Positions 11,681 to 50,376 of a stretch of 64,000 bases of DNA are shown one piece after another. The notes under the pieces were generated by a model that was given only the letters and a program-made list of their open reading frames with translations, made no database searches and was not told where the DNA came from. The DNA lies in the NCBI RefSeq assembly GCF_000372725.1, contig NW_005201912.1, forward strand, positions 124,001-188,000. The letters run 5' to 3'. The position numbers were made by a program, and so were the translations under genes. The stretch comes from Emiliania huxleyi CCMP1516 (taxonomy: Eukaryota). Position 1 is the stretch's first letter; each line of letters opens with the position of its first letter.

Positions 11681-11764
11681 AAGAAAGAAAGAAAGAAAAC
11701 AGACAACTCAAGGGAGGGATGGGAGGACGGCACGCCGCCACCACACAGGGATTTTAAGGAGAGG
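11681..11764 (-). mobile_element. Family M retroposon 3' end with (TTTC)n tail, copy 1
   Basis: Near-identical to copies at 12589, 23783, 26097 and 50193. Confidence 0.85.
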
Positions 11765-11949
11765 GTTTCGCAGTCTCTCAGCAACCAACCAAAAATGCTT
11801 CGAACGCCAGGTGTAATTCTTTTTTTTTGTTTGGGGCGGACAGCATGACGGGGTAGGTAGGGTAGGTCTGGGCCCTCCCGTCGGGTTTTTCCCTCTCTTC
11901 GCGCCGGAATCTTCACAGCAGAAAAAGAATTTTTTCCGCCGAAATCACG

Positions 11950-12418
11950 ATGTCAACCCTCCCCAAGTGGGTGATCTGAGAGAGATTTTTATTAACCAAC
12001 GAGCTCTCCAGAAAACTGGTGCCTCATATGCTGCCTCCCTGCGGATGCTGCCGGCGAGCCTGGCGGTCCGCTGTACTACAAGGATGTGCTGACTCGATTT
12101 CTACTCGAATTCTTCTACCCCCACGACTCGGAACGCGAATGTGACAGGACCATCGGGTCCTTCAGCCTCCAAAGCGGGATCACTCGAGAGCAGCTGAGCC
12201 TGCCTCGGGCCTCGCCTCCCTCTCCTTCAGGCATTCGTGGCATCCTATGGGTCGTCCAGAGTATCGACCTCTGGCTTGTCAGTCGCGGTCACTTGATGAC
12301 CCCCATGAAGTACAGCGATCGCCATCTCGCTGGCCTCTCCGCAGGCCCCCCCGACCGCGTCGAACTCATCGGCGCGGGCTCTCTCGGCTACGGGACCGGC
12401 CCCAGCAGCTTCGGCTGA
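11950..12418 (+). CDS. Possible small hypothetical gene between two M copies
   Basis: ATG at 11950 follows GAAAAAGAATT. An open frame reads ENWCLICCLPADAAGEPGGPLYYKDVLTRFLLEFFYP...SSFG*. No domain recognised and the splice is uncertain. Confidence 0.3.
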
Positions 12419-12588
12419 GGGCTAACAAGCTGCCGAGCCCAAATCACTGTGAGAGTCGTTCGTGATTTCTTGGTGATCTGTCACTCTAGTTGGTAGAGTA
12501 CTCAACCTTCACCGCATCCGGATTTCTTTTTGTTTCCCTTAACTAGGGTATTTGTTTGTATCATGCTGTCCGCCCCACAAGCACAAAA

Positions 12589-12758
12589 GAAAGAAAGAAA
12601 GAAAACAGACAACCCAAGGGAGGGATGGGAGGACGGCACGCCGCCACCACACAGGGATTTTAAGGAGAGGTGTGTGGTGCGCTATCCGTCGCCCACCCTA
12701 GGGAGTCTGCCTCTTCCTATCTCTCTTCGCAGTCTCTCGCTGATTCTCGCTGCAATCT
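12589..12758 (-). mobile_element. Family M 5'-truncated non-LTR retroposon, copy 2, with 12-bp TSD
   Basis: TSD ACAAGCACAAAA at 12577-12588 and 12759-12770. The minus strand carries an ORF end [23 protein letters not shown], then a 3'UTR and (TTTC)n. Confidence 0.85.
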
Positions 12759-12892
12759 ACAAGCACAAAAAGAATACACCTGCGAACGCCAACTATTTTT
12801 TCCACGCGCGAAAGTTCCTGGTGGGCTGGACCTGTGCTTCTCTCCTCGCTGCCAGCAGCTGTCCCTCGAGTAGCCTCGGGCTATACCAGACA

Positions 12893-15236
12893 ATGCTCTC
12901 CCTGCTCTCCCTGGCGCTCGGGCTCAGCCTCCTCACGACCAGCCGTCCGCCGGCACCGCGGGCCGCGGCGCGCCTCGCCGCCTCTTCTGCGCCGTCGTTC
13001 AGCCTGCCCTCGCCGATCGAGACGCTGAAGCGGCTCAGCTCCGCAGAGGCCCGCGAGCTGCAGCGGGAGCTGCTGGAGCTCGCCTTCGAGCAGGACCCGC
13101 AGGTCGTCGTCCGGCGCTCGCTCGACCTTGCGCGTGCGGTCCGCGTCGTCGGCTCCGAGACGGTGCAGGGCCTTTCCTCGGCCGCAGCTGCGCCAGAGCC
13201 GCCCGTGATCCTGCGGCGGATGTGCGAGGAGCTTGGTGCGACGTACGTCAAGCTCGGGCAGTTCATTGCGTCGTCGCCGACGCTCTTCCCGCCCGAGTAC
13301 GTGCAGGAGTTCCAAAAATGCCTCGACGCGACGCCGCCGATGCCGTGGTGCAGAGCAGAGCATACACACATGCAGAGGCGGAGGTCGGGTCTCTTCTAGG
13401 AAGGTTCGTCGGAGCCCTCCGCATAGGTCCGACGTCAAGGAGATCGTCGAGGCGGAGCTCGGCCGTCCCATCGGCCAGGTCTACGCGTCGGTCGACGAGA
13501 CGCCTCTGGCTGCCGCGTCGATAGCGCAGGTGCACCCCGCTGGCCACGGCCCGGAGCGCGGCACAGTGCCCTATCACACCGCTCATCCGACTGGCCGGGG
13601 CTAGCGGTCGAAGACCCGTGCGTGGCAAGGCGGGGATCCCGAGCACATTCCGTCGCCCCTCTCTTCTTCCTCGTCTTCAGGTGCACGCGGCCAGGCTGCT
13701 CAGCGGGGAGGACGTCGTTCTCAAGGTGCAGAAGAAGGGCGTGCAAGGGTCGCTCAAGGCGGACCTCGACCTGCTCTATGCGAACGCGCGCGTGCTGCAG
13801 CTCCTCGGCGCAGCGACCGCACTAGCGGTTCGGAGGAACGCCCCTCGCCTGCCCTCCAGGAACACCTCTCGGAGCCGCCCTGCAGGCGTCGTGACCGCCG
13901 AGCTCTCGGACGTGGTCGCGACCCTTCGCTCGGCGATCCTCGAGGAGAGACTAGACCTGCGCTCGCGGCAGCAGCGAGACGCGACGAGCACGGAAGGACC
14001 CGCCTCACGTGTGGATGAATAGGAGATCGACTTCGTGCTCGAGGCGCAGCGCACGCAGCTAGCTCGCCGAACTCCTCCCTCGTCTCTGAACCGTCTAGGA
14101 CCCTCCCGCAGGCGCAGCGGACGGAGCAGTTCGCCGAGTTCCTCGCTCGCTCGCCGGAGCTGGACGGCGTCGTCACCGTGCCCAAGGTGTACCGCGCCGC
14201 CTCCGCCTCGCGGCTGCTCACGCTCGAGCGCCTCTACGGAGTGCCGCTCATCGACCTCGAGTCGGTGCGCGAGTCTTTGGCCGGAGGTGGCGAGACACCG
14301 AGCCAGAGTGGCGGGTGCTGAACGCAACAGGTGCGCAAGTACCAGCCGCAGCCTGAGCTGGCGCTCATCGTCGCGCTAAACACGTGGGTGAGCAGCGTGC
14401 TGACCAACGAGTGGTTCCACGCAGACGTGCATGCCGGCAACCTGCTCGTCCTCACCGACGGCCGAGAGTAGCGGAGACTCGCCCCTAGCCGAGCATTGAG
14501 CCGACTCTTGGACGAGACCACTCCTTCTCGCCCTCCTTCTCGTCCCTCGAGCCGCGTCGGATTCACCGGCGGACTATGTGAAGCCTGTGTGTGTGGACCC
14601 TTCTCGGAGCTTCCCTGCAGGCCGGGTCGCCTTCATCGACTTTGGGATCGTCGGCGCCATCCCCGCCGCCACCGCGGAGGGGATGCTCGACTTCGTGCGC
14701 TCCTTCCCGGCGGGCGACATGGCTGGCGTCGGCCGCGCGCTCGAGAAGATGGGCTTCACCAAGGAGCTCTCGGAAGAGCAGTCCGCCGCCTTCGCAAAGG
14801 ACATCGGCGAGGTCATCGCCTCGATTGACAGCATGACCGCCGACATCGCGACCACCGCGAGCGCGGGCGCCGCCGCGAGCGCCATCGACGAGACGCAGCT
14901 GAACCGCGCGGTCGCTGCCGTCGCGCGCGTCGCCGAGGGGTGCCGGATCCTAGCTGCTTTGGCGATGCACTGCATTCTTGCAGCCTTTGGTCTGCGCCCC
15001 TCAGTCCACCGCGGTCTGCCCTCAGGTACGGGATCCGCTTCCCGCGCGAGTTTGCGCTCCTCATCAAGCAGGTCCTGTACTTCGACCGGTACACGTCTCT
15101 GCTCGCGCCCGGCCTCGACGTGCTCAACGACGAGCGGCTCTCGATGAACCGGCCGCCGGGCGACGGCGGCGTCTCTAGTGTCGAGGGCGGTAGTGTTGCC
15201 GTTGAGGTGCTGCCGCCGGAGGACGATGCGGAGTGA
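12893..15236 (+). CDS. ABC1/UbiB-family atypical kinase (ABC1K), likely plastid-targeted, multi-exon
   Basis: Signal-like N-terminus [14 protein letters not shown]. Motifs [43 protein letters not shown] and [10 protein letters not shown]. Confidence 0.92.
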
Positions 15237-15351
15237 GAATAGAGGCTGGAGAGAGCCAAGTACGGGGAAGAAAAACGCCAAGTTTGATTTCTTTCTTTTT
15301 TGGGCGCATTCGGAGGAAATATTTGTAAAGGGACCGCACTGGCGCTCCTTC

Positions 15352-15484
<133 letters not shown>

Positions 15485-15636
15485 TACTCGAAGTACGTCG
15501 GTACAACAGGCATCTCGAGAACCTCGAGAGCACCTCTGCCGTCGTGCCTGCCCCCCCCGCCGCCGTAGCCCTTCCCTGATCCTGCCTTTCGCGGTCGTCG
15601 GGGCGCATGGGCCTGCCGCCAACGTTATCGTGGCGC

Positions 15637-17484
15637 TCACCTTCGCGCGCGCTTTGTCAGCGGCAGATTGTCAGACTCGTCGCTACTCGAGTCGGCCTTC
15701 GAGTCGCCCGAAGCGGGAGCAAGAGCGGGACCGGTCGCTCTCGTGCCAGATGCTGTTGGGTGCGACGCCGCGGCGGCTGGCGCATCCGCCCCAAGCTGCT
15801 CCAAACGAGACCGCGATACGCCGTGAGTCCTCCACTGCTGCTTCTGCGCGTCGAACTCGTCCGTCCAAGATTCGCATTCGAGGCTGCCCGTGAGCAACTT
15901 CTTTTGCTCATCGCTCAGGTCGGCCCAAGGAACCAGGGTCACAGATTTCGGGGCGGCGGTAGGCTTCGGGACGCCGCCGCCACCAAAGCTGCGCAGGTAG
16001 GCGAACTCCGAGCACTTGCAGATGATGTTGGTGGTGGCTGCTGCATTAGGGCTGACGTATTCGGAGCCCCCTCCACTCCGCCGCGTCTTGCCGCTGATGA
16101 ACAAGTTGAAGTCGAGGTCCTCCATGGCATGCATCTGTCGCTTAAAGTTAAAGGACTCGAGCAAGTCGAGATTAATGATGAGCACCTTCATGACATGCTT
16201 GCGAAGAAAGGGCGAGCGGCGCTGCAGACTTGCCGGCGAGTCCCGCGTTGCTCCCTGCCAAGAGTGGAAGCCGAACATCGCAATGTCGCGCATGCCAGGC
16301 TGTGGGTCGTCGCCGAGTAGACCGAGGCCCGTCTCGAAATACCGCAGCACCGTGGACAGAGAAGCGCTCACCGAGGTACCGCCTCTGAGGTTAAAGCGTT
16401 TCCACCCAGCAACGTTGTCATCATGCATCACATAGAAGCGATGCCGCGTCCCCGAGCAAACCGCAGCGGCAAATCGGTGCGCAGAGTACCTCGAGTGGCC
16501 GACCGAGGAGAAGTAGTCGCCACCTGCCTCCGAGCTACTGGCCGCCGAGCGAGGTGCTCGCAGACGAAGCTGCTCGTCAAAGTCAACCTCAGGATGCAAG
16601 AAGAAGGAGATGTCGGCGAAGTCTGGGTGGGTTAGGTACTGGTCAAACGTCGCTTGGCCGATCACCGACGCCGGGTAGATGCAGACGACCTGCACGTACG
16701 AGCGGCCGACAAACTGCTTGTCGAGGCAGAGCTGAGCAGCTCTGCCCGCCTTGTAGCTCAGCATGAATATCGGCAGCTGGCAGAAATCATCGTCCGGAAT
16801 CTGAAGCCGCACCATGCCGTCAAGATGCTTCCAGCATGCGGCCTGAGCAGCCGAGATGTAGAGCCAGCCTGACTCGCCAGACTGGAAGCTGATTTGCACG
16901 GGCGCGGGCCGCTCAAGCGCGGGCGGACCCTTGCCTTTGCGCCCGTCGAGGTATGGGACAAGGCTCATGCGAGCGGTGGCAGGTTGCTGCGTGGCCTGCG
17001 CTGCGCCTGCAGACTGTTTGCCCGGATTTTCTTTGATGCCGCGATTGCCCTCACTTGGGACTTTAAGCGCCGGATCCAGCTCGTCCCCTCGCCCACCGTT
17101 CTGGTAGTGCTCCCACACTGCGTCGCACGCCGGGTCGCCGTAGTCGCCGTTGGCTGGGCTGGCCTTGTCGTGCTGGAAGTGAACTTTCTTGAGGGCGTCG
17201 ACGTCCGGATAGCCTCCACTGGTAGACGCTGCGCCGTCGCAGCCTTCATCGGAGTCATCGTTGTCGTCGTCCGAGAGCAGGATGTCCACGTCCCTTTGCC
17301 TCGCGCGTGCACCTAAGGCGGCGATGCAGTGGACGAGCGCCGCTGTCTTGCCGATCTGAGGCTCGCCAAAGAGAAGGAAGCGCCGCTTGTGCCAGCGCGG
17401 CTTCTGTCCCTCAGGGTCGTCGTTTTTCTTTTTTACTAGCCCTCGAGGTTGATCGAGGTCGTGAGAGGCCCGTGATTTGTTCAT
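15637..17484 (-). CDS. GREB1-like / TET-associated glycosyltransferase (TAGT, JGT-like) preceded by a Walker A motif; intronless, probably 5'-truncated
   Basis: Walker A FLLFGEPQIGKT (GEPQIGKT at 17367-17344). GT-A motifs LPIFMLSYKAGR (16776-16741), SVGHSR, FYVMHDDNV (16437-16411), VLIINL and MEDLDFN (from 16125), ending in GGGG. 615 codons from ATG 17484. Confidence 0.75.
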   Translation of the reverse strand: MNKSRASHDLDQPRGLVKKKNDDPEGQKPRWHKRRFLLFGEPQIGKTAALVHCIAALGARARQRDVDILLSDDDNDDSDEGCDGAASTSGGYPDVDALKKVHFQHDKASPANGDYGDPACDAVWEHYQNGGRGDELDPALKVPSEGNRGIKENPGKQSAGAAQATQQPATARMSLVPYLDGRKGKGPPALERPAPVQISFQSGESGWLYISAAQAACWKHLDGMVRLQIPDDDFCQLPIFMLSYKAGRAAQLCLDKQFVGRSYVQVVCIYPASVIGQATFDQYLTHPDFADISFFLHPEVDFDEQLRLRAPRSAASSSEAGGDYFSSVGHSRYSAHRFAAAVCSGTRHRFYVMHDDNVAGWKRFNLRGGTSVSASLSTVLRYFETGLGLLGDDPQPGMRDIAMFGFHSWQGATRDSPASLQRRSPFLRKHVMKVLIINLDLLESFNFKRQMHAMEDLDFNLFISGKTRRSGGGSEYVSPNAAATTNIICKCSEFAYLRSFGGGGVPKPTAAPKSVTLVPWADLSDEQKKLLTGSLECESWTDEFDAQKQQWRTHGVSRSRLEQLGADAPAAAASHPTASGTRATGPALAPASGDSKADSSSDESDNLPLTKRARR

Positions 17485-17503
17485 ATGCAAAGAACAAAAT
17501 GCG

Positions 17504-18612
17504 TCACGGCGGTCTGCCCTGCTGCTGATAGTACGCGGCCCACGCCGCCTGGTGCTGGTGGTACGCTGCCCACGCCGCCTGCTGCCGGTAGTACTCGGCC
17601 CACGCCTCCTGCCCGTGCGCCTGCGCTGCGCCCGCCGCGCCCGCCGCGCCCCCGCCCGCCTCGCCCGCGGGTGGCGGGCTGTGCTGCGGTCGCAGCACCT
17701 CGCCGCGCGTGAAGCAGCCGTGCCGGGCGCGGAACTCCTCGGCAGAGGACGGCACCGCATCCCGCCGCCACTCTGGCTCCGCGCCGGCGACGCGCGCAGC
17801 CTTGCCGCCCTCTGCCGTGCCGCCCTCTGCCGTGCCGCCCTCTCCCTGCGCAGCAGCACCGGCGACCGGCTCGACGGGCGGCGCCGCAGTCGCCTCCGCC
17901 TCCCGCCGCCTCTTCGCCGCCGCCGCCGCCACGCCGTCCGCGCCTCCCGCCGCGCTGTTTGCCGCGCCGCCCCCCGCACCATCTGCGCCGCCGCCGCCTC
18001 TGCTACCGCCTCCGCCGCCGCCTCCGCCGCCCCCTCCGCCTCCTCCGCCGCCTCCTCCGCCCCCTCCGCCGCCCCCTCCACCGAGGGTGAGGGTGTACAC
18101 TCGCTTGCCACGCTGCAGCACCCTACCGAGCGGCCGTCCGCGCAGCCTCTCCCCGTCCACCGCCAGGATGACCTCGCCCATTGCCCGCGCGGCGTGGGTC
18201 GTGGACGCGTCGTGGACGCGTCGCGGACGCCTCCGGCGCCGCCCGCCGCACCGACGCGCACCACGCCCTCCCGCTCCGCCTGCCCGCCCGCCGCCAGGCC
18301 GACGACACGGTTCTCTTCGTCGAGCAGCAGGCCGAGGCCGCCTGAGGAGTAGCGCATCCAGCTCCGTGTGAAGGCGTCGCTCGCCGACTCGCCTTGCCGA
18401 GGCGCGGGCCGAGGCCGCCGCTGCCGCTGCCCACGCAGACGCGCCGCGAGCCCGCCTCCTCCGCACCCTCCTCCGCCGCGCCGACGGCGTCGCACTGCGC
18501 CGGCCGCGGCTGGGGAGGTCGAGGAGGCGGGCGGGCGGCGGCGTGTCTGGCGAGGGGGCGGCGGTGGAGGCGGGGCGAGGCGGTGCGAGCGGCGGCGCTG
18601 CCGGGTGGACAT
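17504..18612 (-). CDS. PDZ-like domain protein with Gly/Ala/Gln-rich tail (spliced)
   Basis: GGLGLLLDEENRVVGLAAGGQAEREGVVRVG|EVILAVDGERL matches the PDZ pattern. Stop at 17504; the start is approximate. Confidence 0.6.
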
Positions 18613-18821
18613 CGCGAGCTCAGATGCGCACGAGCCGGATTTTTTTCCCGCATGCAGTGTTGCTAATATTTTTCCTTGTGCCAGGGCTGCGGGGCTCGAG
18701 CCCGAAGGACGGGCAGCTGCACTCGGCGCCGCCAACCATCATCGGTGGGCGGCACTGACTGGGCCCCGGACGACGGACGATGGGGCGATACATACATGAC
18801 AAGTCCCGCTCGCTCGCGGCG

Positions 18822-19932: not shown

Positions 19933-20047
19933 CAGATCAGATCGGAGCCGATGTGATCGGGCGGGAGAGGCAGCTGACCACCCCCGGCCGTCAAGAGGGG
20001 TACAAGAAAAAGAAGAATTAGACAACCCAACTCTCTCTGAGTTGTGC

Positions 20048-20905
20048 ACTGGGGGGTTGTATCAGAGGGGGGGGGTCTGAGGCAAGGGGGCCCAGATCTG
20101 CTCGTCTCAGAGGGTACCCTCTGTGCCAAGAGAGGCCATCCACGAGCGGCTCAGAGGGTGCCTGGGCCGACCCTCTGAAGGCCTGTGCCGCCAAGCCAGC
20201 CTCTCTCGGCGCAGCCTCTGAGGCTACGGGGACCCTCTGAGACGCCAAGGCAAGCCCCGCGAGGCCGCTCCTCAGAGGGGTGGCATTTCAAGTCTCTCTC
20301 AACCACAGAAAAAGAATTTGTGCGCGGGAGTTGACGGAACTGTAGAATCTGTCTCTTCTCTACTCTGCGCGAGGCGCCCCAGCTGTGGCGAGGCACCCAA
20401 GATGCGCATCAGAGTCCGGGTCAACGGTGTGGAGGGCGGTGCCACGCTTTCGATCGGCGCCGAGGCGGGCGTCAAAACGGAGTCAGAGCTCGTTGCGGCG
20501 GCCGCGACCAAGCTGCTTGGCGTGGATCCGACGCAGTCGATCGACGTCAGCAAAGCAAAGCTGTTCCTTTCCGGAGGCGCTGTGAAAAGTCGTAATGTTT
20601 TACTACCCCGCCCCTCCCCGCCCTCACTGGTCAGCGCCGTTCGTGGAGGGCTAGGCAGCTCCGCCTCCGCCCGGGGCTCTCGCCTCTGCCGTGAGGGGGG
20701 GCCACCCCCCACCCTCTGAGGTCAAAGCCCTCTGTGCCGCGCCAAGACGGACCATCAGCCAGGGACCCTCTGAGGCCAAAAGCAGCCAAGAGAGGCCATA
20801 GAGGCGGCACAGAGTCAGAGTCAAACCCTCTGTGCCGCCAAGGCAGGGGTCCGACCCGTCCTCAGAGGGGGGTCTGAGGCCTCAGAGAGTGTACAGCCCC
20901 CCAGT
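20048..20905. mobile_element. Non-autonomous TIR DNA transposon (Pack-type) with 8-bp TSD
   Basis: TIRs ACTGGGGGGTTGTA (20048-20061) and TACAGCCCCCCAGT (20892-20905). TSD AGTTGTGC at 20040-20047 and 20906-20913. Many subterminal CCCTCTG(A/T)G motifs in both arms. Confidence 0.85.
20402..20590 (+). pseudogene. Captured 5' gene fragment, KHA/ubiquitin-like (KCTD9 N-terminal-like) domain
   Basis: MRIRVRVNGVEGGATLSIGAEAGVKTESELVAAAATKLLGVD...AKLFLSGGAV, truncated by the element's right arm. Confidence 0.5.
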
Positions 20906-20906
20906 A

Positions 20907-21157
20907 GTTGTGCCCTTGTTTGTGCCCTTGGCACCGTGGAGTGCTGGGGGGGGCGACAGGGAGGATGTGGCCCTGAGTTATGTGTACGCCGACTCAGGGT
21001 GTGTGGCAGCCAGCTGGCTGTGTGTCTTGTGAGCCTGTTTGTGTCTGTGTGTCGCTCGTGCGTGTCGTCATCATCTGTCCAGCGTCCACCCATACCGCGT
21101 TGGTGTCCAGTCCGAGCCTGGCTGTTCTTCACCTTTCTACCTACCTACCTCTCTCTG
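20907..21157 (+). repeat. ~250-bp dispersed repeat ending in (CTAC)n, copy 1 (retroposon-like 3' end)
   Basis: Near-identical to 22449-22699. Confidence 0.85.
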
Positions 21158-21367: not shown

Positions 21368-21410
<43 letters not shown>

Positions 21411-21417
21411 CCTCCCT

Positions 21418-21525: not shown

Positions 21526-22448
21526 GGGCTAGTAGATTGCCGGCCTTAAGTCATAGGTGACGCGAGGGCGCTCACTTAATTGATTAATTCACTCATTAAT
21601 TCCTTAATTGCGTACCGTATTCCGGGTAATCTTAATTATTAATCATCGGGCGGGGCGCGGCGCGGCGGCTGCGCGAGGCGGCGGCGCGGCGCATCGGCGG
21701 GCGGGCGGAGCGGGGCGGCGCGACCATCTGTCCTGACCGGGGCCTCTGGTCTTTGATGCGGAACAACGGTCGCGCCGCCCTCGACTCAAGGGGCTGCCTT
21801 CCACACGTCGCTGCTCAGGCCGGGGGAGGGGGGGAGACCTCCTGTTCCTCGCGGAACGGGAGCAGCCCCCTCCTTGCCCGGTCTGCGAAGCAGGGCGGTG
21901 GTCGTGCCATCTTCGCTTCAAAACGACCACGCCGCAATCGTCGCCGGCGCGCGACACGTTCCCGGAGGCCGGACTGTCCTGGTCGAGAGTGTGTGCCGCC
22001 AAGGCGGGGCTACTCGGGGACAGTGCCGACGGGGCGCGGCTCGTGAGACGACTCCCGCGAAGGCACGGCTGGCATCCGTGGCGTGGGGCTCGCCTTCGAA
22101 AAGTCGGGCATGGCTCTCCCCGCAACTCTATCGCTAACACGCGCGCACCACCGAGACTGTGGTGGGCGCGCTGCGGTCGCACGTCTACCTCCGTCATAGT
22201 GCCACGACGTGCGGCCTAGAATTAGCACACGCGCCTCTGCTTGCATACACTCATACATTGGATTGTCATCGCCTGTGAGTGCAAGATTAGGGCTAGCCGC
22301 AGGCAGCTAGCCTCTGAGGAGGGCGTCCATAGACACCTCACTAGACCCCACACACGGTCTCGTCCGTGCCTCGCCGGCCGGAGAGATTGCTGGAGGTAGA
22401 GCACGCCTGCTCTAGCCTCGCATGTCACTTCCTGTCGTCTGTTGTGTC

Positions 22449-22699
22449 GTTGTGCCCTTGTTTGTACTCTTGGCACCGTGGAGTGCTGGGGGGGGCGACA
22501 GGGAGGATATGGCCTTGAGTTATGTGTAAGCCGACTCAGGGTGTGTGGCAGCCCGCTGGCTGTGTGTCTTGTGAGCTTGTTTGTGTCTGTGTGTCGCTCG
22601 TGCGTGTCGTCATCATCTGTCCAGCGTCCACCCATACCGCGTTGGTGTCCAGTCCGAGCCTGGCTGTTCTTCACCTTTCTACCTACCTACCTCTCTCTG
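22449..22699 (+). repeat. ~250-bp dispersed repeat, copy 2
   Basis: Near-identical to 20907-21157. Confidence 0.85.
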
Positions 22700-22727: not shown

Positions 22728-22965
22728 AGCTCCGAGTAGAGGGGGCGCTCCGCTGCTAGGGGAAACCTGGAGCGCGGACTAACCCTCGGAGACCCGTGTT
22801 TACTTTAAGGCCCTTTCCTTGCGAACGCGCACCCCCCCTAGCTAGGGGTCAGGGCTCTCTAGCCCGTAGCCCGATGCCGATCATCCGGCCCGCTGGGTGC
22901 GCTTCTCAGCTCCCCGGCCCTGGATGTGAGGTTACTGACTGCACTCCAAGTGCTCCAAGTGCTCT
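22728..22965 (+). repeat. Dispersed repeat A (inverted homolog at 48762-49191)
   Basis: Shares TAGCTCCGAGTAGAGGGGGCG, AACCCTCGGAGACCCGTGTT and CCGATGCC.ATCATCCGGCCCGCTGGGTGCGCTTCT...ACTGCACTCCAAGTGCTCCAAG with the second copy. Confidence 0.85.
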
Positions 22966-23039
22966 CTCACAGCAGACAGGCTCGACACAGGTGCGAACTG
23001 GCGCGTGCTAGAAAAAGAATTTCCCTCGGCCGACACTAG

Positions 23040-23180
23040 GGTCTAGGCACGGGACTGGCGCGCACTCACTGGCACTAACACAGGTACACCACGGGAGCCG
23101 CCTAAGCGACTCCAAGAAAAAGAATTTTACTCCTGAGCTCCCTCGCACAACACTGGGCACGGGACTGGCGCGCACTGGCG
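23040..23180 (+). repeat. Dispersed repeat B (GGGACTGGCGCG...GGAGCCGCCTAAG...GAAAAAGAATTTT)
   Basis: Inverted homolog at ~50070-50165 and a partial homolog at 26062-26096. Confidence 0.7.
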
Positions 23181-23505: not shown

Positions 23506-23782
23506 CCTGAGGGAGGGTGTAGTTCCTGTAGAGGATGTAGACTGTACGCTAGGAGCAGTGCGGTGCCCTCGTCGGCGGAGAGGACGCCAAGGCAGTCCAC
23601 GCGAGGCAGCCCGCCCCGGAGGCTGTGCGAGCGGGCGGCAGCCTTCTACCCTTCTTGTTGTCGCTCATCTCGAGCTCGCTCTCGGCCGCCGAGGGCGGGG
23701 CTAGGGCCTAGGGCGTAGGGGCGGAGAGTGCCAGCAGGGGAGCGAAAAAAGAAATTTGCGCTGCAGTGGGACTAACGAAATG

Positions 23783-23844
23783 TTAAAATCCCTGTGTGTT
23801 GGCGGCGTGCCGTCCTCCCATCCCTCCCTTGGGTTGTCTGTTTC
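23783..23844 (+). mobile_element. Family M retroposon 3' end, copy 3
   Basis: Matches the other M copies; lies 14 bp beyond the HET-LRR stop codon. Confidence 0.85.
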
Positions 23845-23858
23845 AAATAAGGTGTGCC

Positions 23859-26025
23859 TCATATGGTGACTCGGCCGCTCTCGGCCACACGGCGCCAGCC
23901 TCGCCCCCACGCGCGCACGAGCGGGTACGACCAGGGAAGCAAGTTCATCTGCGCCCCCGCTATCGCGTGCCCCGGCTGCGGCCCGTGCTTCGCCTCGAGC
24001 GCCTCCAGTAGTGCCGCCTGGCCCGCGAGGCCGATCCGATTGAACGTGGCGTTCACGCGACATCCCTGACCCGCGGCCGGGAGGGAAGCCGCGAGTGCCA
24101 TCGCGCCCTCGTCGCCCACGTCGCAGCACGACAAGGCCAGCCCATGCGACGGCTCGCCCGTCGCCAGTGCCTCAGCTAACACCGCGGCTCCCTCATCGCC
24201 AATAGGCGTGATACTGACGTCGAGCATCTGCAGCGTCGGCGCCACGCCGCGATGGAACACGCCGCAGAGCGCGCCGACGCCGCGCGCGCCGAAACGGTTT
24301 GCCGTAACGTCGAGGGACTCAAGCGCCGGGAGCGCGCCGTCCTCGAGCCCCGCCGCAAGCTCCGCCACGCCCTCGTCGTCGAGGCGATTCCCAACTAGGA
24401 AGAGGGTCCGGAGGCTCTCGCAATAGTTAAGCGCCTCCGCCAGCAGCGCCGGGCTAGTCCACGCGTCGCCACGCACGAGCGGCAGACCGATGTAGTAGAG
24501 CTTCTCGACCGTGCCCAGCACGGCCTTCGCCGTCTTCTCGTAGAGCGCCAGCACGGTCGCCGAGTCCGCGCCGTTGGTGAAGCGGCAAGCGGCGAGCAGC
24601 GTCGCCATGCGCTCTGGAGTCGCGGGGAGCCGCCGCTGAGCGCCGCCGTCGCCGCTGGCGACGTCGATGACGAGCTTCCACTTGGCAAAGCCCAGCGTAG
24701 AGGGCTTTGCGCCCAGCTCTGCGGAGCAGCGCTCGAATGTCGTCCAGCCGCGAGTGTCGTAGGTCCGGCTCCGGTCAAAGCCGGCGGGCAGCTCGTCTGG
24801 CAGCTGCGTGAGCAGCACGACCGTGACCGAGGCGTGCGCGTACCAGAGGTCCTAACGCGGAATGTAAAGCCAACGTGCCGTGAGAGCGGTGCATGTTGTG
24901 GCGCTATCGGGCTGGGAAAGGGGCTGGCGTGTGCTCACCATCGTGTTCTCCAGCATGCGACCGAAGGCGGCCTTCTGCTCGCCCGACCGGCTCGCCTCAT
25001 ACGCGCGCCGCTCGGCAAATAGCGCCGGGTCCTTCTGGTAGCCCGAGCTCCAGTCCAGAAACACGCCCTGCGCGAGCCAGGAGAGGAGTGGCGGTGAGGA
25101 AGGGAGTAATGGTGGGCATGAGGCGCGGGAGGCAGCTCACCATGTCCGAGAAGCCGTACTCGCGGCACGCGCCGAGCAGGCCGCGCCCGCCGTAGAGGCC
25201 CCGCAGCTTGCGGGAGAGCAGCTGGAGCTGGCGGCCCTCTCGGTCTGGATGCGCCGCCTCAAGCCAGCAGTAGGAGACGGAGATGACGGGAAGCAGCCGG
25301 TCTGGGTTGCGCTTGCGGCCGAAAAAGCTGGCGATAAAGCCGAGAAAGGATGAGGGGGAGGGCTCCTTGCCGAAGCGCTGCAAGGCTTCCGCAAAGCCGG
25401 CGAGGTCAAAGCCGCGCCTTGCGCCTTTCTCGATCCGCCTCAGCTGAGCAGAGCTTAAGAAGGCCTCCTCTGGCAGGTCCTGCCGCCGCGGGAGCACGTC
25501 GCCCCGCTCTGCCAGCGCCATGAGCCAGTTCAGACTGATCAGCCGCACATCGCCCGGCCGGACCTTGTCGCCGTCGCCCTCGAGGGCAGCCCAGATGGAG
25601 TCGTGCCATCTGTAGCGGGCGCCGTCATTGGTGTTTGCGCGCGACCGTTCGCGAGCTTGAAGACCGGACTCGGTGTCGGGGAGCGTCGGCACGTGGTAGG
25701 GGAGCTGTGAGGCGCGTCGGCAGAGGTTGTAGACGGCGAGGATGAGGGGGTTCCGGAGGAAGAGACCCTCGATCAGATGTGTCGGGAAGAATAAGATGGC
25801 GATTGGCAGGTCGACGAAGAGCACCATCAGAATCAGATATGGAAGGCAACGCCAGGCGAGGAGGGCGGGAGGCACGCCGACAGCAGCGTCGGAGCTGCAG
25901 AGGCCGAGCGCGATGAGTGGTGAGACAACGAGATGGAATGGAAACATAATCAAAAGGAGTGCTGGCAAGAGCACGATGCCCACGAGGGTCTCAACGCACG
26001 AGCGCAGCAGGCGGGTGGCCGTCAT
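23859..26025 (-). CDS. Membrane-anchored HET-like domain + LRR (NLRC3/RanGAP-type) protein, 3 exons
   Basis: ATG at 26025 followed by hydrophobic helices. HET-type motifs ISVSYCWLEAAHPD, VFLDWSSGYQKD, DLWYAH and YDTRGWTTFER. LRRs such as LRTLFLVGNRLDDEGVAELA and LDVTANRFGARGVGAL. Confidence 0.85.
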
Positions 26026-26096
26026 ACACACAGCAAACCAAAGGCGGCCGGAGCAATGCACGAAAAAGAATTTTCCGCACCCCCTCGCACAACACT

Positions 26097-26168
26097 TTAA
26101 AATCCCTGTGTGGTGGCGGCGTGCCGTCCTCCCATCCCTCCCTTGGGTTGTCTGTTTTCTTTCTTTCT
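26097..26168 (+). mobile_element. Family M retroposon 3' end, copy 4
   Basis: Matches the other M copies; lies 71 bp upstream of the HET-LRR ATG, at the break in the upstream retroelement ORF. Confidence 0.85.
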
Positions 26169-32541: not shown

Positions 32542-32740
32542 TAAAAAAGAAAGAAAACACACAAAACCAAACGAGGGATGGGGGAGGAGGACAGGGTCCA
32601 CACCTGCACGAGCAGGATTTTCCATGTACGGCTATCTATGACCTATGTGGCTCTTACGTACACATCTACATTCCCGGAGGAGGACTGCTGACAGGGTTGT
32701 GATTTTGGAAGGACGATCAGGGGCACAGGGGGGGAACAGG
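32542..32740 (-). mobile_element. Family M2 retroposon-like 3' end, copy 1
   Basis: AAACCAAAC...GGACAGGGTCC.CACCTGCACGAGCAGG and AAGGACGATCAGG...CACAGGGG are shared, inverted, with 58350-58457. T-rich tail. Confidence 0.65.
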
Positions 32741-44650: not shown

Positions 44651-47042
44651 GTATGTTTTTTGCGCGCGGTGTTCGGCGGCGCGCGGTGTTCGCGCGCGTG
44701 GCCGGGGAGGGAAGAGGTGAACAAAGGTTGAAGAATTCATACGGGGGTGGTTGAGGGGTTGAGGGTTGAGGCCCCCCCTCAACCATCTGGTTGAAGGTTG
44801 AGACCCCCCGTCAACCCTTTAGTTGGGGGTTGAGGCCTCCAGGGCCTATTCACAGGCTCGCGCGTGATCACAAGATAAACTGGAACAGCCCCTGCCCGCT
44901 GCCGCCAAAAAATCGCTTCGCCTGCGGCGCGCTCCTGCGCTCCTCTTTCCTCGAGCGCAATCCATAAGTAGGAGACGCTCACTGTCGCCATTCAGGCGCC
45001 TGATCTTTCAGCAAAGCGATGGCCTACCTGGTACGAGTTCAGATGCGCGCCCGGCAGAAGACGCGTGTGATGCCGCATGCAGTGGAATGCGCACAGAGAA
45101 CGGACGGCAAGAGAAGGCAAGGGAAGGAAGAGAAACGGCTGGTGAAGCTCAGTTCACGGCGTAGTATTGCGGTCACTAACCATCCACGGCAAGAGTCACG
45201 GGTGAATGCTGCCGCATAAAGCAACAGAGTGTCGCGCGGTTTTGGCGCGATGGTCTTGTCGCGGTTCACGACTTGACGCTGCACACGGTCATAGACGCAG
45301 GATCTATTTGGCGAGTCTCAAGCAGCAAAAGTAGGCGCGGGAAATTAATGTCGATCCTGAGATCTCAATTTTGGCGCTAGTTTTCGTTTTCTGGTACATC
45401 ACGACGACTTGCTTGGGTCTCATGTAGCTCGACGGCTCTTCGACGGCTCTTTCTGGTTGGATCAGACAGTGCTAATCAGTCAACAACGCAATGCCGAGAG
45501 CAGGGCGGCCCTAGTGCTTAGAGCAGGGCGGCCTTCGAGGAGGGTCAACTAAGCTCCTGCTGCATATATATCGAGCATGGAAGGCGGCCATTGCTCAAAC
45601 CTGTTCGAGTTGGCCTCCGGGAACAAGGGTGCGTGGCCGGCGCGGTCTGTTTCACGTGCAATAAGGGCAACGCCATCAAAATCGCGAACATGGGCCACGA
45701 CATGCCTCCGACATTTCTCAGGGCTCGGACGGAAGCTCTGCAGACAGCCAGACCGCTCTGGGCCTCTGCGCGGTCGGACCGACTTTTTCAGACTTCACTA
45801 TTCTGGATACTGAGGGTATGTGCTGCTAGATCTCACTGAGCTGAGCTCCGTATCTGCCTTTTGGTAAGCAGTTTTGAGTTCGGTAATGTCTCTGGAGACG
45901 GAGGGCCGCGTCCGCGGACGGCCATGACTCGGCCGGGACCGCCCCGTGGGGGCCTTCGATGGCTGTCAGCGCTCCTCCGGGCTTTGCATCACACCTCCCA
46001 TTCACGCACGTAGGTCGTAGCTGAAGCAAGTACTCGTAAAACCCATACTACCTCCAGTATCGTAGTCTTTGTTAGTATCGAGGTCTCGCGAGTTTTGGGG
46101 GTTCTCGGCGCCGCGACAGCGCTGCGAGCCGCGCGATGCCACGGCGCTCGGCCTGCTGAGAGAAGAGCTTCCCGGACGGCAGTGACAAGTTACCCGACAT
46201 CAATCGTCGACGGCAACCTCGAGAACTGCGCCTCCAAAGTCGCCCAGATTCGCCTCTCGCGGCGCGCTGAGTTAGTATCGCCGGTGCGCCAGCAGGCTCT
46301 GCTCCACAGCAGGGCATGCCCGACTGGCTCCTGCTAGCCGTGCGTCCTGGTGGCATCCATTGCCAGCTCAGGTAGCCTCAGGAGGTCGCCTCGCGCACGA
46401 CGCGGCGTCGCACAGCACCGCTCAGCGTTACTACCGAGTTAGTATCGTCGACCCACAGAGACTGCTCTTCTGTAGGTGGAGCCGACAAACGCCGGCCGGG
46501 TCGGCGCCGCCGCCCCCATCGCCGCCGCCGGGGCGGCGGCGGCCTCGGCGGACCATCCGGCGCGCCGCGCGCCCGTCGGGGAGGTGTTCACCACCCCTGG
46601 CTCCTCACCCCGCCACGCCTTCGTGCGGACGCCGTGGCACCCACCTCAGGCGCCGCTCGGACTCGGTTGACGGCCACCCAAGTGCTTGGCTCATGCCAAG
46701 CCGACCGGCAGGCGATTCCCACTCACTGCTAGGCTAATCTCGGGCTGTCCGGCGTCAGTGTGGTGCCGTGAGGGGCGCCGCCCCCAAAACTACGATCGTT
46801 AGTACCGTGCGGGGGCAGTGCATTTAATTCTGTCAAAAATCCAAATCTGCTCCGTGGCGCTTATTGGGCTAGGATCATACGTCCGGGAGGCCCCCCATGC
46901 GTGCCGTAACGATCGACAGCGATCTGGCTACTCTGTTCACGTTCACACCTCGTAAACCCCCCATAACCCCGATACAGGAGGTAGTCTAGTGCGCAGAGTA
47001 GGAATAGGCTGAGAGGCGGCCACCCATACCCGGGTACCAAAA

Positions 47043-48202
47043 ATGGCGGCCCAACTATCTCACTACGACCTCTTCGAACAGCTCGAGTGCGCGCGCCGCC
47101 CTGCCGCCCACTCTTCGAGCAGCTCGAGTGCGCGCGCCGCCCTGCCGCCCACTCTTCGAGCAGCTCGAGTGCGCGCGCCGCCCTGCCGCCCACCGTGCTG
47201 ACACTCTGACCCTCCTCTGCTGGCGCCAGGCTGCCTCAGTGCGAGTGCCTAAACGCCGCAAAGGATCACACGCTTCGGTCTGCTCTCACACCTTCCGACG
47301 AGGGATTCCTGCAGAGCGACGCGGACGAGGAGCTGCTAATCTCGCTCAGATTCATGCAGGCGTGCGCCGAGGCGGCCTCCTCGTCGCTTCACCCTACATA
47401 TGCTGACCCGCTCTCCCGCACCTCAGGCGGTGCGGCTCTCGGCCATCGTCGTCGCCGGACCCGCCGCGAGCGCGCCCTCCGAGCTGCGCATCTTTGCCAA
47501 CCCGCCTGTGAGCGACTCCCCTCCTATCACGACACCGTACCGAAGCCCGAGTGCTGCGGGCCGGTCTGCCGCTGCGTGCCACCCTCATGCCAGCGGCTGC
47601 CCACGCCGTGCCGGCAGGCGCCGCTCGACTTTGACAGCGGCAGGTCAAACGCGCCGACCCAGACGCTGCCCCTCACGCCGGCGGACGTCGCGCGCGAAGG
47701 GCGGCCCGTCGAGCTCCGCTTTGTCCACTTTCAGGTTGGATCACCCGCCTTCCACTGACCGCCGCTCGCGACGCACGGAGCGACGGACCGCAATATACCA
47801 GGGCGCCGCAGCGAGCATTGCGGCGCCCTATCGTACGGTCCCACAGCACGAGAGCTGCGATCTCAGAGCGGCGCCCTGTCAGCTCCGCGGGCGTCGCCCA
47901 CACTCGCAGCGACAGGAGGCTCTCCCCACACCCCACGCCCCTGGCCCAGACTGCCTCTCGCCGCTGGTCCACTCCCGAGTGTCGTGTGGAGGCTCGCAAC
48001 CCTCCCTGGACTTGCCGCTCAGACGGTGCGCGAGCTCACCATTTTCGTGCCCGGCAACATGGGCAACGAGGAGGAGACGGTCATCGCGCGGCTGCGTCTG
48101 ATCGGGCTGCCGGTCGAGCAGACCGGCGCGAAGCGCTCCGAGGCGGAGCAGGCGGCCGCGAGCAAGGCGGACTGGCTGGGCAGCGGCATCCGCGGCGCGT
48201 GA
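47043..48202 (+). CDS. PITH-domain protein (PITHD1/TXNL1 C-terminal-like), multi-exon
   Basis: CECLN, FLQSDADEELLISLRF, APSELRIFAN, LRFVHFQ|TVRELTIFVPGNMGNEEETVI. Confidence 0.88.
47070..47192. repeat. 41-bp tandem repeat x3 spanning the first exon-intron junction
   Basis: CTCTTCGAGCAGCTCGAGTGCGCGCGCCGCCCTGCCGCCCA x3. Confidence 0.95.
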
Positions 48203-48308
48203 GCGGGGCAGGCTCGGCCTCCTTCTGGTGGCGCTCTCCAGGAAGCGGACAGCTTCCTGAGCGCAAAGGAAGGGACAGCTTCGGTATGGCGCTTAGCGTC
48301 GATTGGAG

Positions 48309-48750
48309 AAATAAATAAATAAAACGGACACCTCTACTGTGAGATGGGTAAAAAGGAACAGGTCCCCGCCCTGCGGTCTTTGTGCAGGGTTCTTTGTGGG
48401 TGTGGTCGGCGACTAGCCGGGGTCGTCCTCCCGCGATGGGGGACTAGCACTAGCCGTCTTCCACATGGTCCCTCGGGTTCCTGCTGCTCCTAATCTCTTC
48501 GTACATCCTCCTGCTGATCTCCGCAACGTCCTGCTCCCTCCCTCGTCTCGCCCTGCGCGACTGCTCCGCCTCACCGTCGTCTGCCCAGGGCGTCGTCTGG
48601 TGACGGGTCCTCCATATACGTAGTCGGTTGAGGTCGCCGCCCTCCTCGTGCCTCTTCCCAACGTTCCCTCGGCGGTCGATGCCGTCTGCTCCGGCTCCCC
48701 AGTCCCCGGCTCTGCCCTGCTCTCGTCTGCGCTAGTTTCTGCTTCGTCCT
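48309..48750 (-). mobile_element. Family M3 5'-truncated retroposon, copy 1, (TTTA)n tail
   Basis: 48311-48399 matches 49845-49935 inverted. The minus strand carries an ORF-end-like VAEISRRMYEEIRSSR...DDPG* resembling the family M ORF end. Confidence 0.7.
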
Positions 48751-48761
48751 CACCGGCGCCC

Positions 48762-49191
48762 TTGGAGCACTTGGAGTGCAGTCATCAACCGCACATCCAG
48801 GGCCGGGGAGCTCAGAAGCGCACCCAGCGGGCCGGATGATTGGCATCGGGTTGCGGGCAAGAGAGCCCTAGCCCCGGGGGTGCGCGGTCGCAGGGCCATA
48901 ACACGTCTCCGAGGGATGGTTCCGTGTACCGGGTTACCCCTTAACTGCAGAACGCACCCTCTTCCTCGACCGTGGGGGGGGGTGCGCGTTCGCAGGGCCA
49001 TAACACGGGTCTCCGAGGGTTGGTTCTGCGCTCCGGGGTTCCCCCAGCGGCGGAATTTTTCCCTCGCGCTGTGGGTCCCCCTAGCTGCGGAACGCCCCCT
49101 CTACTCGGAGCTAAAGAATACTCTCCGAGGGTTAGCCCCGCGTACCAGGTTTCCCCTTAACTGCAAGGACGCCCCCTCTACTCGGAGCTAG
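48762..49191 (-). repeat. Dispersed repeat A, copy 2, with internal monomer duplications
   Basis: Inverted homolog of 22728-22965; TAGCTCCGAGTAGAGGGGGCG and CCCTCGGAGAC...GTTATGGCCCTGCGA each occur twice. Confidence 0.85.
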
Positions 49192-49364
49192 TGATACGTG
49201 ATACGGGAATACGTACCGCCCCCACGCAGTACCTACACTAATCGACGAGAATACAAGAATACGCAGCTGCGAGACGCCTTACTCGAAGATAATACGAGAA
49301 TACGTAGCTGCAAGGCACCTGTCGAGCAGCTTCCGCGGCGAGCAGCTTACTTGAGGCGGCGAGG

Positions 49365-49815
49365 GTGGAGGCGAAGGCGAGGGAGGAGGCGGCGAGGGAG
49401 GAGACGGCAAGGGAGGAGGCGGCGAGCGAGGAGGAAGCGAGGGAGGAGGCGGCGAGGGGGGGGGGCGGCGAGGGAGGAGGTGGCAAGGGAGGAGGCGGCA
49501 AGGGGAAAGGCGGCGAGGGAGGTGGCGGCGAGGGAGGAGGCGGCGAGGGAGGAGGAGGTAGAGGAGGCGGCGAGGGGGGAGGAGACGAGAGAGGAGGAAG
49601 CGAGGGAGGAGGCGGCGGGGAAGGAGGCGAGAGGGGAGGCGGTGAGGGAGGAGGCGGCAAGGGATGAGGCGGCAAGGGAGGAAGCGGCGAGGGAGGAGAT
49701 GGCGAGGGAGGGGGCGGCGAGGACGGCAAGGGATGAGGCGGCGAAGGAGGAGGCGGCGAGGGAGGAGGCGGCAAGGGGAGAAACGGCGAGGGAGGAGGTG
49801 GCGAGGGAGGGGGTG
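49365..49815. repeat. 15-bp purine-rich minisatellite (GGCGAGGGAGGAGGC)n
   Basis: Degenerate array of about 30 units. Confidence 0.9.
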
Positions 49816-49844
49816 GCGACGTCGCCCGCGCCTTGCCTGTACGC

Positions 49845-49933
49845 CACAAAGAACCCTGCACAAAGACCGCAGGGCGGGGACCTGTCTTTTTTACCCATCT
49901 CCTAGTAGAGGTGTCCGTTTTATTTATTTATTT
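49845..49933 (+). mobile_element. Family M3 retroposon, copy 2, with 12-bp TSD
   Basis: TSD TTGCCTGTACGC at 49833-49844 and 49934-49945; (TTTA)n tail. Confidence 0.85.
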
Positions 49934-50192
49934 TTGCCTGTACGCGCCTTGTCTGTCGCGTGAATCGTGCTAATAAATAGAGCAGGCATATCCAGGAGAG
50001 ATGGGCGACGCAGGAACACAGAGGCACAGTGCGCGCCCCGCCCCGCTCGCAGAGCGTGCTGTGTGACAAGCCCGAGGGGAAAAATCTTTTTCTCTTAGGC
50101 GGCTCCGACGGTGTGCCGGTGTGTGTGCCAGTCCGCGCCAGTCCGCGCCCTTGTTGTGCCAGTGTGCTGTGAGAGACCTTGAGTTCCGATGA

Positions 50193-50271
50193 AAAAGAAA
50201 GAAAGAAGGCACACACGCAAGGGAGGGATGGGAGGACGGCACGCCGCCACCACAGAGAGATTTTAAGGAGG
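50193..50271 (-). mobile_element. Family M retroposon, copy 5 (diverged), with 10-bp TSD
   Basis: TSD GTTCCGATGA at 50183-50192 and 50272-50281. Confidence 0.88.
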
Positions 50272-50376
50272 GTTCCGATGATTCTTTTCTGCCGGCCTGA
50301 AATTCTTTTTCTCACTGCTGAGCCTGCCAGCCCGACCGCGCCGCCGCAAACGCACTCCCGCCAGCGCCCCTGCTTC

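What the first reader, a model, noticed from the sequence alone, without database searches (positions are those of the whole stretch)
11681..50281. Retroposon family with a (TTTC)n tail that repeatedly sits just upstream of an AATTCTTTTT motif in one orientation
Seen: five copies of a 62-170 bp element (11681, 12589, 23783, 26097, 50193). Two have clean TSDs (12 bp ACAAGCACAAAA; 10 bp GTTCCGATGA), and one retains an ORF end (...[20 protein letters not shown]). In four copies the truncated end points at an AATTCTTTT-like motif 15-60 bp away (11815, ~23750, 26062-26074, 50281/50301). The fifth inserted into AAAAAGAAT itself, upstream of ABC1K. Inference: these are TPRT insertions whose U-rich tail pairs with A-rich promoter DNA, giving orientation-biased promoter targeting in a GC-rich genome. 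A pyrimidine tail instead of poly(A) is unusual.
Basis: partly seen in the sequence, partly recalled or inferred. Interest (0 to 1): 0.75.

Follow-up and report, generated by a model that had tools for sequence, protein, structure and literature searches.

The report
Promoter-targeting LINE with a chromodomain
These short repeats are the broken-off tail ends of a jumping gene (a LINE) from a marine eukaryote, likely an alga; in all 22 related copies whose neighbouring gene could be identified they sit just in front of that gene on the opposite strand, often 20-30 bases from a short A-rich motif, which likely reflects active promoter targeting by a protein predicted to carry a chromodomain.

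Summary
All five copies, both TSDs and the ORF end are real. They are 5'-truncated 3' ends of a high-copy LINE with a (TTTC)n tail. Overlapping database proteins extend the ORF about 1,240 aa upstream: RT thumb, chromodomain-like module, RNase H, CCHC finger. A collinear relative (30% identity, 899 aa) adds APE and RT; this family's own RT and endonuclease were not recovered.

In 120 independent metagenome loci the bias holds. The motif lies within 100 bp of the 5' junction in 26/87 copies, against 2/87 on the other strand. Neighbouring genes on the 5' side run away from the element in 22/22 Pfam-identified cases (3' side: 5 away, 6 toward), ATG a median 135 bp off. An A-tract lies 15-45 bp from the first nick in 22/26 TSD-defined sites.

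The tail-pairing mechanism fails: no consensus at the nick, and at most 2 nt of tail overlap in 27/30. Best reading: the LINE complex docks at the motif, probably through a bound host factor, and nicks at a measured distance, as TRE5 does at tRNA genes but here at protein genes. TSSs, empty sites and new insertions were not seen; selection is not excluded.

The parts
11682..11779 (-). Copy 1: 3' end of the LINE (83 nt with (TTTC)n tail) plus a 13-nt upstream piece after an internal deletion; no TSD
11815..11824 (+). AATTCTTTTT motif on the 5' side of copy 1, inside a ~60-bp segment that resembles the target site of copy 2 inverted
12577..12588 (+). Copy 2 TSD, tail side (12 bp)
12589..12758 (-). 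Copy 2: longest window copy; last 24 codons of the ORF (12756-12685), TAG (12684-12682), 3' UTR with predicted hairpins, (TTTC)n tail
12759..12770 (+). Copy 2 TSD, 5' side (12 bp)
12791..12801 (+). Degenerate T-rich motif at the usual distance (26 bp) from the first nick of copy 2
12893..15200 (+). Spliced host gene (ABC1-type kinase by recalled motifs; continues past 15200), transcribed away from copies 1 and 2
23745..23756 (-). Motif variant on the 5' side of copy 3
23783..23843 (+). Copy 3: 61 nt, starts at the TTAAAA truncation hotspot, tail reduced to TTT, no TSD
26063..26072 (-). AATTCTTTTT motif on the 5' side of copy 4, 47 bp before the ATG of a minus-strand ORF
26097..26168 (+). Copy 4: 72 nt, apparently inserted into the end of a second retroposon (family X); no clear TSD
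50183..50192 (+). Copy 5 TSD, tail side (10 bp)
50193..50271 (-). Copy 5: diverged subfamily copy; the same insertion is present in locus L069
50272..50281 (+). Copy 5 TSD, 5' side (10 bp)
50301..50310 (+). AATTCTTTTT motif on the 5' side of copy 5
32543..32616 (-). Sister family 2 copy (hairpin, CCCATC box, TTTC tail)
58399..58460 (+). Sister family 2 copy (TTTA-type tail)
48309..48399 (-). Sister family 3 copy ((TTTA)n tail)
49845..49933 (+). Sister family 3 copy ((TTTA)n tail) with 12-bp TSD at 49833 and 49934

Best explanation
The repeats are 5'-truncated 3' ends of a high-copy LINE whose protein carries RNase H, a CCHC finger and a predicted chromodomain, and which likely docks at an AATTCTTTT promoter-like motif through a host factor bound there and then nicks at a measured distance, so that copies land just upstream of protein-coding genes on the opposite strand. 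Steps. (1) ORF2p binds its RNA at the hairpin-containing 3' UTR (inferred). (2) The complex is positioned by the asymmetric motif that lies roughly 40-200 bp before ATGs (position shown; promoter function and host factor inferred). (3) A relaxed APE endonuclease (seen in relatives, inferred here) nicks the primer strand 16-29 bp promoter-distal to the motif with no sequence consensus (position shown from TSDs). (4) Reverse transcription starts on the (UUUC)n tail with 0-2 nt of pairing (shown), often stops early, with a hotspot in the UTR hairpin loop (shown), and a second nick 7-15 nt away makes the TSD (shown). The result leaves the motif and the gene intact.
For: Parent: P0328 ends in the window ORF end. 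P0347 overlaps P0328 at 94% over 593 aa and P0356 at 98% over 365 aa. L033 joins the last ~110 codons to the core on one contig. P0519 is collinear with P0347 (30%, 899 aa, E 4e-95) and has APE (E 8e-6) and RT (E 8e-5, YADD). Chromodomain: relative P0360 passes the Pfam cut-off (26.3 vs 25.1), and the clade profile hits chromodomain structures (best E 3e-4). RNase H passes the cut-off in P0378; in this family it is weak by Pfam (E 0.03-0.06) but the D-E-D and WVPAH motifs are present. Targeting: motif 26/87 vs 2/87, AT-matched 4.0; 22/71 vs 1/71 after removing copies nested in family X; 20 of 27 distances fall at 8-33 bp. Genes on the 5' side run away in 22/22 loci with a Pfam hit (41 loci scanned) against 5 away and 6 toward on the 3' side (11 of 49 loci with hits; Fisher p 4e-4). 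An independent codon model gives 27 vs 1 and 10 vs 10. A-tract at -45..-15 from the first nick in 22/26 sites; T-tract 4/26; A-tract downstream 8/25. The ~14-bp window without a nick consensus resembles TRE5 (44-54 bp upstream of tRNA genes, opposite orientation, TFIIIB contact; passages of PMC5911963).
Against: No host factor, TSS or new insertion was observed; these are standing copies filtered by selection. The strict motif is missing within 100 bp in 61/87 copies, and 4/26 TSD sites lack an A-tract. This family's own RT and APE were not recovered. Its chromodomain lacks the first and third aromatic cage positions that several relatives keep (cage positions recalled), and a single-sequence fold failed (pLDDT 44). 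No empty allele was found in 4+4 runs (tables were cut). That the motif is a promoter element rests on ATG distance only; motif sites without a nearby copy gave 3 away, 1 toward and 8 uncalled.
Confidence: 0.55

Rival explanations
1. Direct readout: ORF2p itself recognises the A-tract/AATT motif or its bend on naked DNA and nicks two to three helical turns away, as R2Bm does with its upstream motif. Promoter location is a by-product of where the motif occurs in a GC-rich genome.
For: The A peak at -30 to -21 from the first nick matches the position of the R2Bm upstream motif, -34 to -22 (passages of PMC10499050). The motif is on the same side of the nick. The ORF has ~330 unassigned residues between thumb and RNase H that are conserved in the clade.
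Against: R2Bm tolerates only +1 bp of spacing change and needs a nick-site motif; here spacing spans 16-29 bp with no nick consensus. Several copies lie antisense in front of ATGs with no clear motif (L018, L028, L066).
Confidence: 0.2
2. Selection, not targeting: insertion is broadly AT-biased, and only copies upstream of the core promoter and antisense survive (a sense (TTTC)n tail could mimic the T-rich motif).
For: All data are standing copies. Copy 5 is shared with a wild population (L069), so at least some are old. No empty sites were seen.
Against: Selection should tolerate 70-bp inserts at gene 3' ends in either orientation, yet 0 of 22 copies point their 5' end at a gene end. It does not predict a tight distance to the nick. 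TSDs are not AT-rich (52% GC). Family X survives in the sense orientation at the same promoters.
Confidence: 0.12
3. Chromatin-guided targeting: the chromodomain binds the +1 nucleosome or a promoter histone mark, and the motif merely marks the edge of the nucleosome-free region.
For: The chromodomain-like module is conserved across the clade. It would explain motif-less, correctly oriented sites. Chromodomains are implicated in targeting of LTR elements (passages of PMC11288735 and PMC5911963).
Against: The methyl-lysine cage looks degenerate in this family. Distance to the ATG is broad (48-438 bp) while distance to the motif is narrow.
Confidence: 0.1
4. One reading: the U-rich tail pairs with nicked A-rich promoter DNA and so picks the site and orientation.
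For: Window copy 2 has 4 nt of tail overlap inside an A-rich site; T is the first TSD base in 17/30.
Against: Overlap is 0-2 nt in 27/30 and TSDs are 52% GC. The motif is 16-29 bp from the nick, and priming on it would give the opposite orientation with the tail next to the motif. The A-strand motif is not enriched directly after tails (1/104 at 0-20 bp).
Confidence: 0.03

Closest known systems
TRE5-A of Dictyostelium discoideum (L1-clade LINE; passages of review PMC5911963 read)
   Same: APE-type LINE; inserts a set distance upstream of genes (about 44-54 bp) in the opposite transcriptional orientation; window about 10-14 bp wide; safe-haven logic.
   Different: TRE5-A targets Pol III genes through TFIIIB and has an oligo(A) tail and no RNase H or chromodomain. 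Here the neighbours are protein-coding genes, no adjacent tRNA gene was found, the tail is (TTTC)n, and the host partner is unknown.
Tf1 of Schizosaccharomyces pombe (passages of review PMC7175516 read)
   Same: Targets promoters of Pol II genes through a host DNA-binding protein (Sap1, Atf1).
   Different: Tf1 is an LTR element with an integrase; this is a TPRT element with 7-15 nt TSDs and 5' truncation.
R2Bm upstream-motif recognition (passages of PMC10499050 read)
   Same: A motif about 22-34 bp upstream of the primer-strand nick sets site and orientation.
   Different: R2 has an RLE nuclease, one rDNA site, rigid spacing and a nick-site consensus; here APE (in relatives), dispersed sites, 16-29 bp spacing and no nick consensus.
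Dualen/RandI and Ambal algal LINEs (Dualen: passages of PMC5029228 read; Ambal recalled, seen only as a term in search listings)
   Same: Very long ORF with APE, RT, RNase H and CCHC in marine algae; chromatin-related accessory domains (SET in a cryptophyte Dualen; SET also in relative P0445). The nearest RT clusters by language-model features are mostly from diatoms.
   Different: No RLE motif was recognised after the CCHC finger. A chromodomain lies between RT thumb and RNase H, which the passages read do not list for Dualen. The clade was not placed on a tree.

Membership tests
LINE (non-LTR retrotransposon, TPRT) | Fixed 3' end with simple-repeat tail and variable 5' truncation | tested here: met
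   Tail in 115/125 unique copies; lengths 52-293 nt, median 91, in 80 copies with both ends; 35/129 run off the contig at the 5' side
LINE (non-LTR retrotransposon, TPRT) | Target-site duplications of variable length | tested here: met
   7-15 nt in 30/82 versus 0.9% in mismatched-flank controls
LINE (non-LTR retrotransposon, TPRT) | RT domain in the ORF that carries this 3' end | tested here: inconclusive
   Own fragments reach only the thumb region (P0356); RT with YADD is in collinear relatives P0519, P0382 and P0507 at about 27-30% identity
LINE (non-LTR retrotransposon, TPRT) | Endonuclease (APE or RLE) | tested here: inconclusive
   APE in relative P0519 (E 7.7e-6, just under the Pfam cut-off); not recovered for this family
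Dualen/RandI | RLE after the CCHC finger in addition to APE | tested here: inconclusive
   No nuclease family hit and no PD-(D/E)xK motif recognised by eye in the ~310 aa after the CCHC; this region was not folded
Dualen/RandI or Ambal | RT phylogeny with reference elements | not testable with these tools
   No Repbase references are held; PDB search of P0519 gave no RT hit; Atlas neighbours are mostly diatom RTs (a lead only)
TRE5-type Pol III-targeting LINE | tRNA or 5S gene about 40-55 bp from the 5' end | tested here: not met
   3 tRNA calls in 60 of 120 loci scanned, none closer than about 400 bp to the core; no Rfam hit in the window
TRE5-type Pol III-targeting LINE | Upstream, opposite-strand insertion in a narrow window | tested here: met
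   22/22 opposite strand; 10 of 12 motif-to-nick distances at 16-29 bp
R2-type sequence-specific LINE | Consensus at the nick and rigid spacing | tested here: not met
   No consensus around either nick in 30 sites; spacing spans 14 bp
SINE | Pol III-derived head and defined 5' end | tested here: not met
   5' ends are spread over 0-236 nt upstream of the core and longer copies continue into coding sequence
Canonical methyl-lysine-binding chromodomain | Chromodomain sequence profile | tested here: met
   P0360 passes the Pfam cut-off; the clade profile, which includes this family, hits CDYL2, CDY1, Swi6 and cpSRP43 chromodomains
Canonical methyl-lysine-binding chromodomain | Three-residue aromatic cage | tested here: not met
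   This family has R and Q at cage positions 1 and 3; P0430, P0379 and P0378 keep W, W and Y (cage positions recalled)

The most novel reading that the evidence does not exclude
An undescribed marine-algal LINE clade (APE-RT-chromodomain-RNase H-CCHC) includes the first LINE that targets Pol II promoters with position and strand specificity, measuring from a lineage-specific core-promoter motif. Several retroposon families share this niche: one class inserts antisense 16-29 bp from the motif, another inserts in sense at the motif and duplicates it, so promoters turn over by stacked retroposition.
Probability: 0.5. Interest if true: 0.82.

Novelty: new variant of a known kind. Interest (0 to 1): 0.68.

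Why it matters
Position- and strand-specific LINE targeting is documented for repeated genes (rDNA, tRNA genes). Pol II promoter targeting is documented for LTR elements such as Tf1. A LINE that does it at ordinary gene promoters would be a new safe-haven strategy and a testable model of how TPRT sites are chosen without a nick consensus. The insertions also expose a candidate core-promoter motif in a poorly studied algal lineage and suggest rapid promoter turnover between strains. In nine literature searches I saw no listing or passage describing a chromodomain-bearing LINE or a Pol II-promoter-targeted LINE.

Tried and rejected
No genome is held for the window, so no genome-wide mapping was possible. 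The core pattern found nothing in viral contigs, and P0347 found no locus in viral or prokaryotic collections. The record behind L109, a possible long copy, is not held. A homology search with the oxoprolinase did not identify the organism (best hits 53-58%); 'haptophyte' remains an inference from 65.9% GC, short introns and marine runs. The single-sequence fold of the chromodomain region was uninformative (pLDDT 44); no fold search and no fold of the C-terminus were run. Laying contigs of seven runs showed no listed joint that skips a copy (joint tables were cut, and contigs break at repeats), so polymorphism is untested. The 3' UTR hairpin folds well (z -3.7), but on 16 hand-picked copies it shows only one-sided wobble changes and no covariation. 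Rejected readings: SINE, Pol III targeting, R2-like site specificity and tail pairing (see membership tests). Papers not held: PMC2829327 and a recalled PubMed id for the Dualen paper. The main supplementary PDF of PMC12480563, which holds its repeat note, was too large to read and may describe these LINEs. The earlier-findings index had nothing on this sequence or genome.
Full report
OBSERVATION. The five copies are in the window at the stated places. Copies 2 and 5 have the stated TSDs; copies 1, 3 and 4 have none that I could define. Copy 1 has an internal deletion and copy 3 has lost its tail. The motif lies on the 5' side of copies 1, 3, 4 and 5. Copy 2 overlaps a motif on the other strand but also has a degenerate one at the usual distance. 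The window is 65.9% GC, has spliced genes and is held by marine runs. Two haptophytes have 64.6% and 65.7% GC (passages of PMC11347835), so a haptophyte is likely but not shown (one search did not identify it). No genome is held.

INDEPENDENT COPIES. With the window this gave 129 matches and 125 unique copies. L069 carries the same insertion as copy 5 at 96% flank identity, so the loci come from the same or a very close species. In each of four DNA runs more than 130 contigs leave the tail into different flanks, so the family is high-copy. A tail was found in 115/125 copies. TSDs of 7-15 nt were found in 30/82 copies with both flanks, against 0.9% for mismatched flanks. 5' ends are spread, with a hotspot at CC|TTAAAA (17/89, 4.7 expected) in the loop of a predicted UTR hairpin (z -3.7; no covariation). 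Assembly breaks hide long copies: 35/129 run off their contig.

PARENT. An 88-aa frame from L033 found 123 database proteins. Overlapping members (P0328-P0347 94% over 593 aa; P0347-P0356 98% over 365 aa) give about 1,240 aa: thumb region, chromodomain-like module, RNase H, CxxC...H...C finger and a C-terminal region in which I recognised no RLE motif. A profile search of 1.84 billion representatives gave 488 hits, of which 150 were listed. Cluster members include P0519, with APE and RT and collinear with P0347 at 30% over 899 aa, and P0382 and P0507 with RT. The chromodomain passes the Pfam cut-off in P0360, and the clade profile hits chromodomain structures at E 3e-4 to 4e-3. In this family cage positions 1 and 3 are not aromatic, whereas P0430, P0379 and P0378 keep them (cage positions recalled). 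The family's own RT and APE were not recovered, and the fold attempt failed.

TARGETING. Within 100 bp of the 5' junction the A-strand motif occurs in 26/87 copies, the opposite strand in 2/87, and 11/104 and 9/104 after tails; 4.0 are expected at matched AT content (L033 left out). Without copies nested in family X it is 22/71 versus 1/71. For gene orientation I scanned the longest ORFs of both strands within 1.3 kb. 5' side: 142 of 184 ORFs, 41 loci (shortest ORFs, window ORFs and one duplicate dropped); 22 loci had a Pfam hit and all 22 genes run away from the element on the opposite strand, mostly with the domain start nearest. 3' side: 134 of 222 ORFs, 49 loci; 11 hits, 5 away and 6 toward (the dropped L070 rows would add one toward). 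Fisher p 4e-4. A codon model (24/26 correct in cross-validation) gave 27 away, 1 toward, 16 uncalled on the 5' side and 10, 10, 25 on the 3' side; its one 'toward' (L018) is 'away' by Pfam. Junction to first in-frame ATG: median 135 bp, range 48-438, n 21 of 22. Aligned on the first nick, 22/26 TSD sites (4 stacked sites dropped) have an A-tract at -45 to -15, peaking at -30 to -21; T-tracts 4/26; downstream A-tracts 8/25. Motif G to nick was 16-29 bp in 10 of 12 sites with a regular motif.

MECHANISM. Something holds the nuclease two to three helical turns from an asymmetric motif. A host factor on the motif fits the loose 14-bp window best, by analogy with TRE5-A (PMC5911963, passages) and Tf1/Sap1 (PMC7175516, passages). 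Direct readout fits the -30 to -21 position, which matches the R2Bm upstream motif, but R2Bm spacing is rigid (PMC10499050, passages). Chromodomain guidance would explain motif-less sites, but the cage is degenerate. Selection alone does not predict the nick spacing or the absence of copies pointing at gene ends, but no empty or new sites were seen, and motif sites without a copy gave only 3 away, 1 toward and 8 uncalled.

A SHARED NICHE. A second 5'-truncated family (X) lies on the opposite strand; its fixed end abuts the motif and the motif is duplicated around it in L036, L062 and L102. Many (TTTC)n copies then land in X's end: 16 X matches lie on the 3' side in that arrangement. Families 2 and 3 share the hairpin, CCCATC box and T-rich tail, and family 2-like copies lie co-oriented between the element and the ATG in L063 and L070.

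KNOWN OR NEW. It is a LINE by every DNA feature tested. It works like TRE5 but is not a TRE5 (no adjacent tRNA gene in 60 of 120 loci scanned). It is not R2-like in specificity. Its clade is unplaced; Atlas neighbours of a relative's RT are mostly diatom proteins, and algal Dualen elements carry other chromatin domains (PMC5029228, passages). Phaeocystis genome papers report abundant young LINEs without, in the passages seen, any insertion pattern (PMC12480563 passages and hits in 12 of 14 supplementary files; PMC11347835 passages); the main supplementary PDF could not be read. Passages of PMC11288735, PMC4112212, PMC6338049 and PMC5890265 mention chromodomains only for LTR elements or not at all. 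Nine searches (listings only unless named above) showed no chromodomain LINE or Pol II-promoter-targeted LINE; Repbase was not available.

VERDICT. New variant of a known kind; interest 0.68.

Noticed in passing
window 23030-23180; L036, L062, L097, L102: Retroposon family X: opposite strand to the (TTTC)n element, fixed end abutting the AATTCTTTT motif, with the motif duplicated as part of its TSD. Similar families (Y; one in L004 with a 21-bp TSD) seem to do the same. Parent unknown.
   Followed up: partly
window 32543-32616, 58399-58460, 48309-48399, 49845-49933: Sister families 2 and 3 with a shared hairpin, CCCATC box and (TTTC)n or (TTTA)n tails; one has a 12-bp TSD. Family 3 at 49845 and copy 5 point their 5' ends in opposite directions across one intergenic gap.
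   Followed up: partly
window 11856-12578: Another very high-copy repeat between copies 1 and 2, strongly represented in an RNA run; not identified.
   Followed up: no
window 11800-11850 versus 12560-12800: A ~60-bp segment beside copy 1 resembles the target site of copy 2 in inverted orientation, with a small internal inversion; the two flank the high-copy repeat above.
   Followed up: no
window 20904-21157 and 22446-22699: 254-nt repeat pair, 97% identical, ending in (CTAC)n; also in L014 and L076.
   Followed up: no
window 22738-22962 and 48758-49190: Repeat family ending in short CCAAGTG-type repeats, present in L009, L014, L022, L093 and L102, with internal duplications at 48758-49190.
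   Followed up: no
L020, L029, L051, L096, L098, L104: Short internal fragments of the LINE ORF lie next to 3'-end copies, suggesting internal priming or template jumps at the same sites.
   Followed up: no
protein P0445: A relative in the clade carries a C-terminal SET domain above the Pfam cut-off.
   Followed up: no
window 15637-18612 (-): 991-aa ORF with GREB1-like circularly permuted SF2 helicase and TET-associated glycosyltransferase hits, a base-J-type modification gene pairing (recalled).
   Followed up: no
window 8723-9204 and 23850-26000: A further high-copy repeat upstream of the KDM8-like gene, and a multi-copy LRR-containing region between copies 3 and 4.
   Followed up: no
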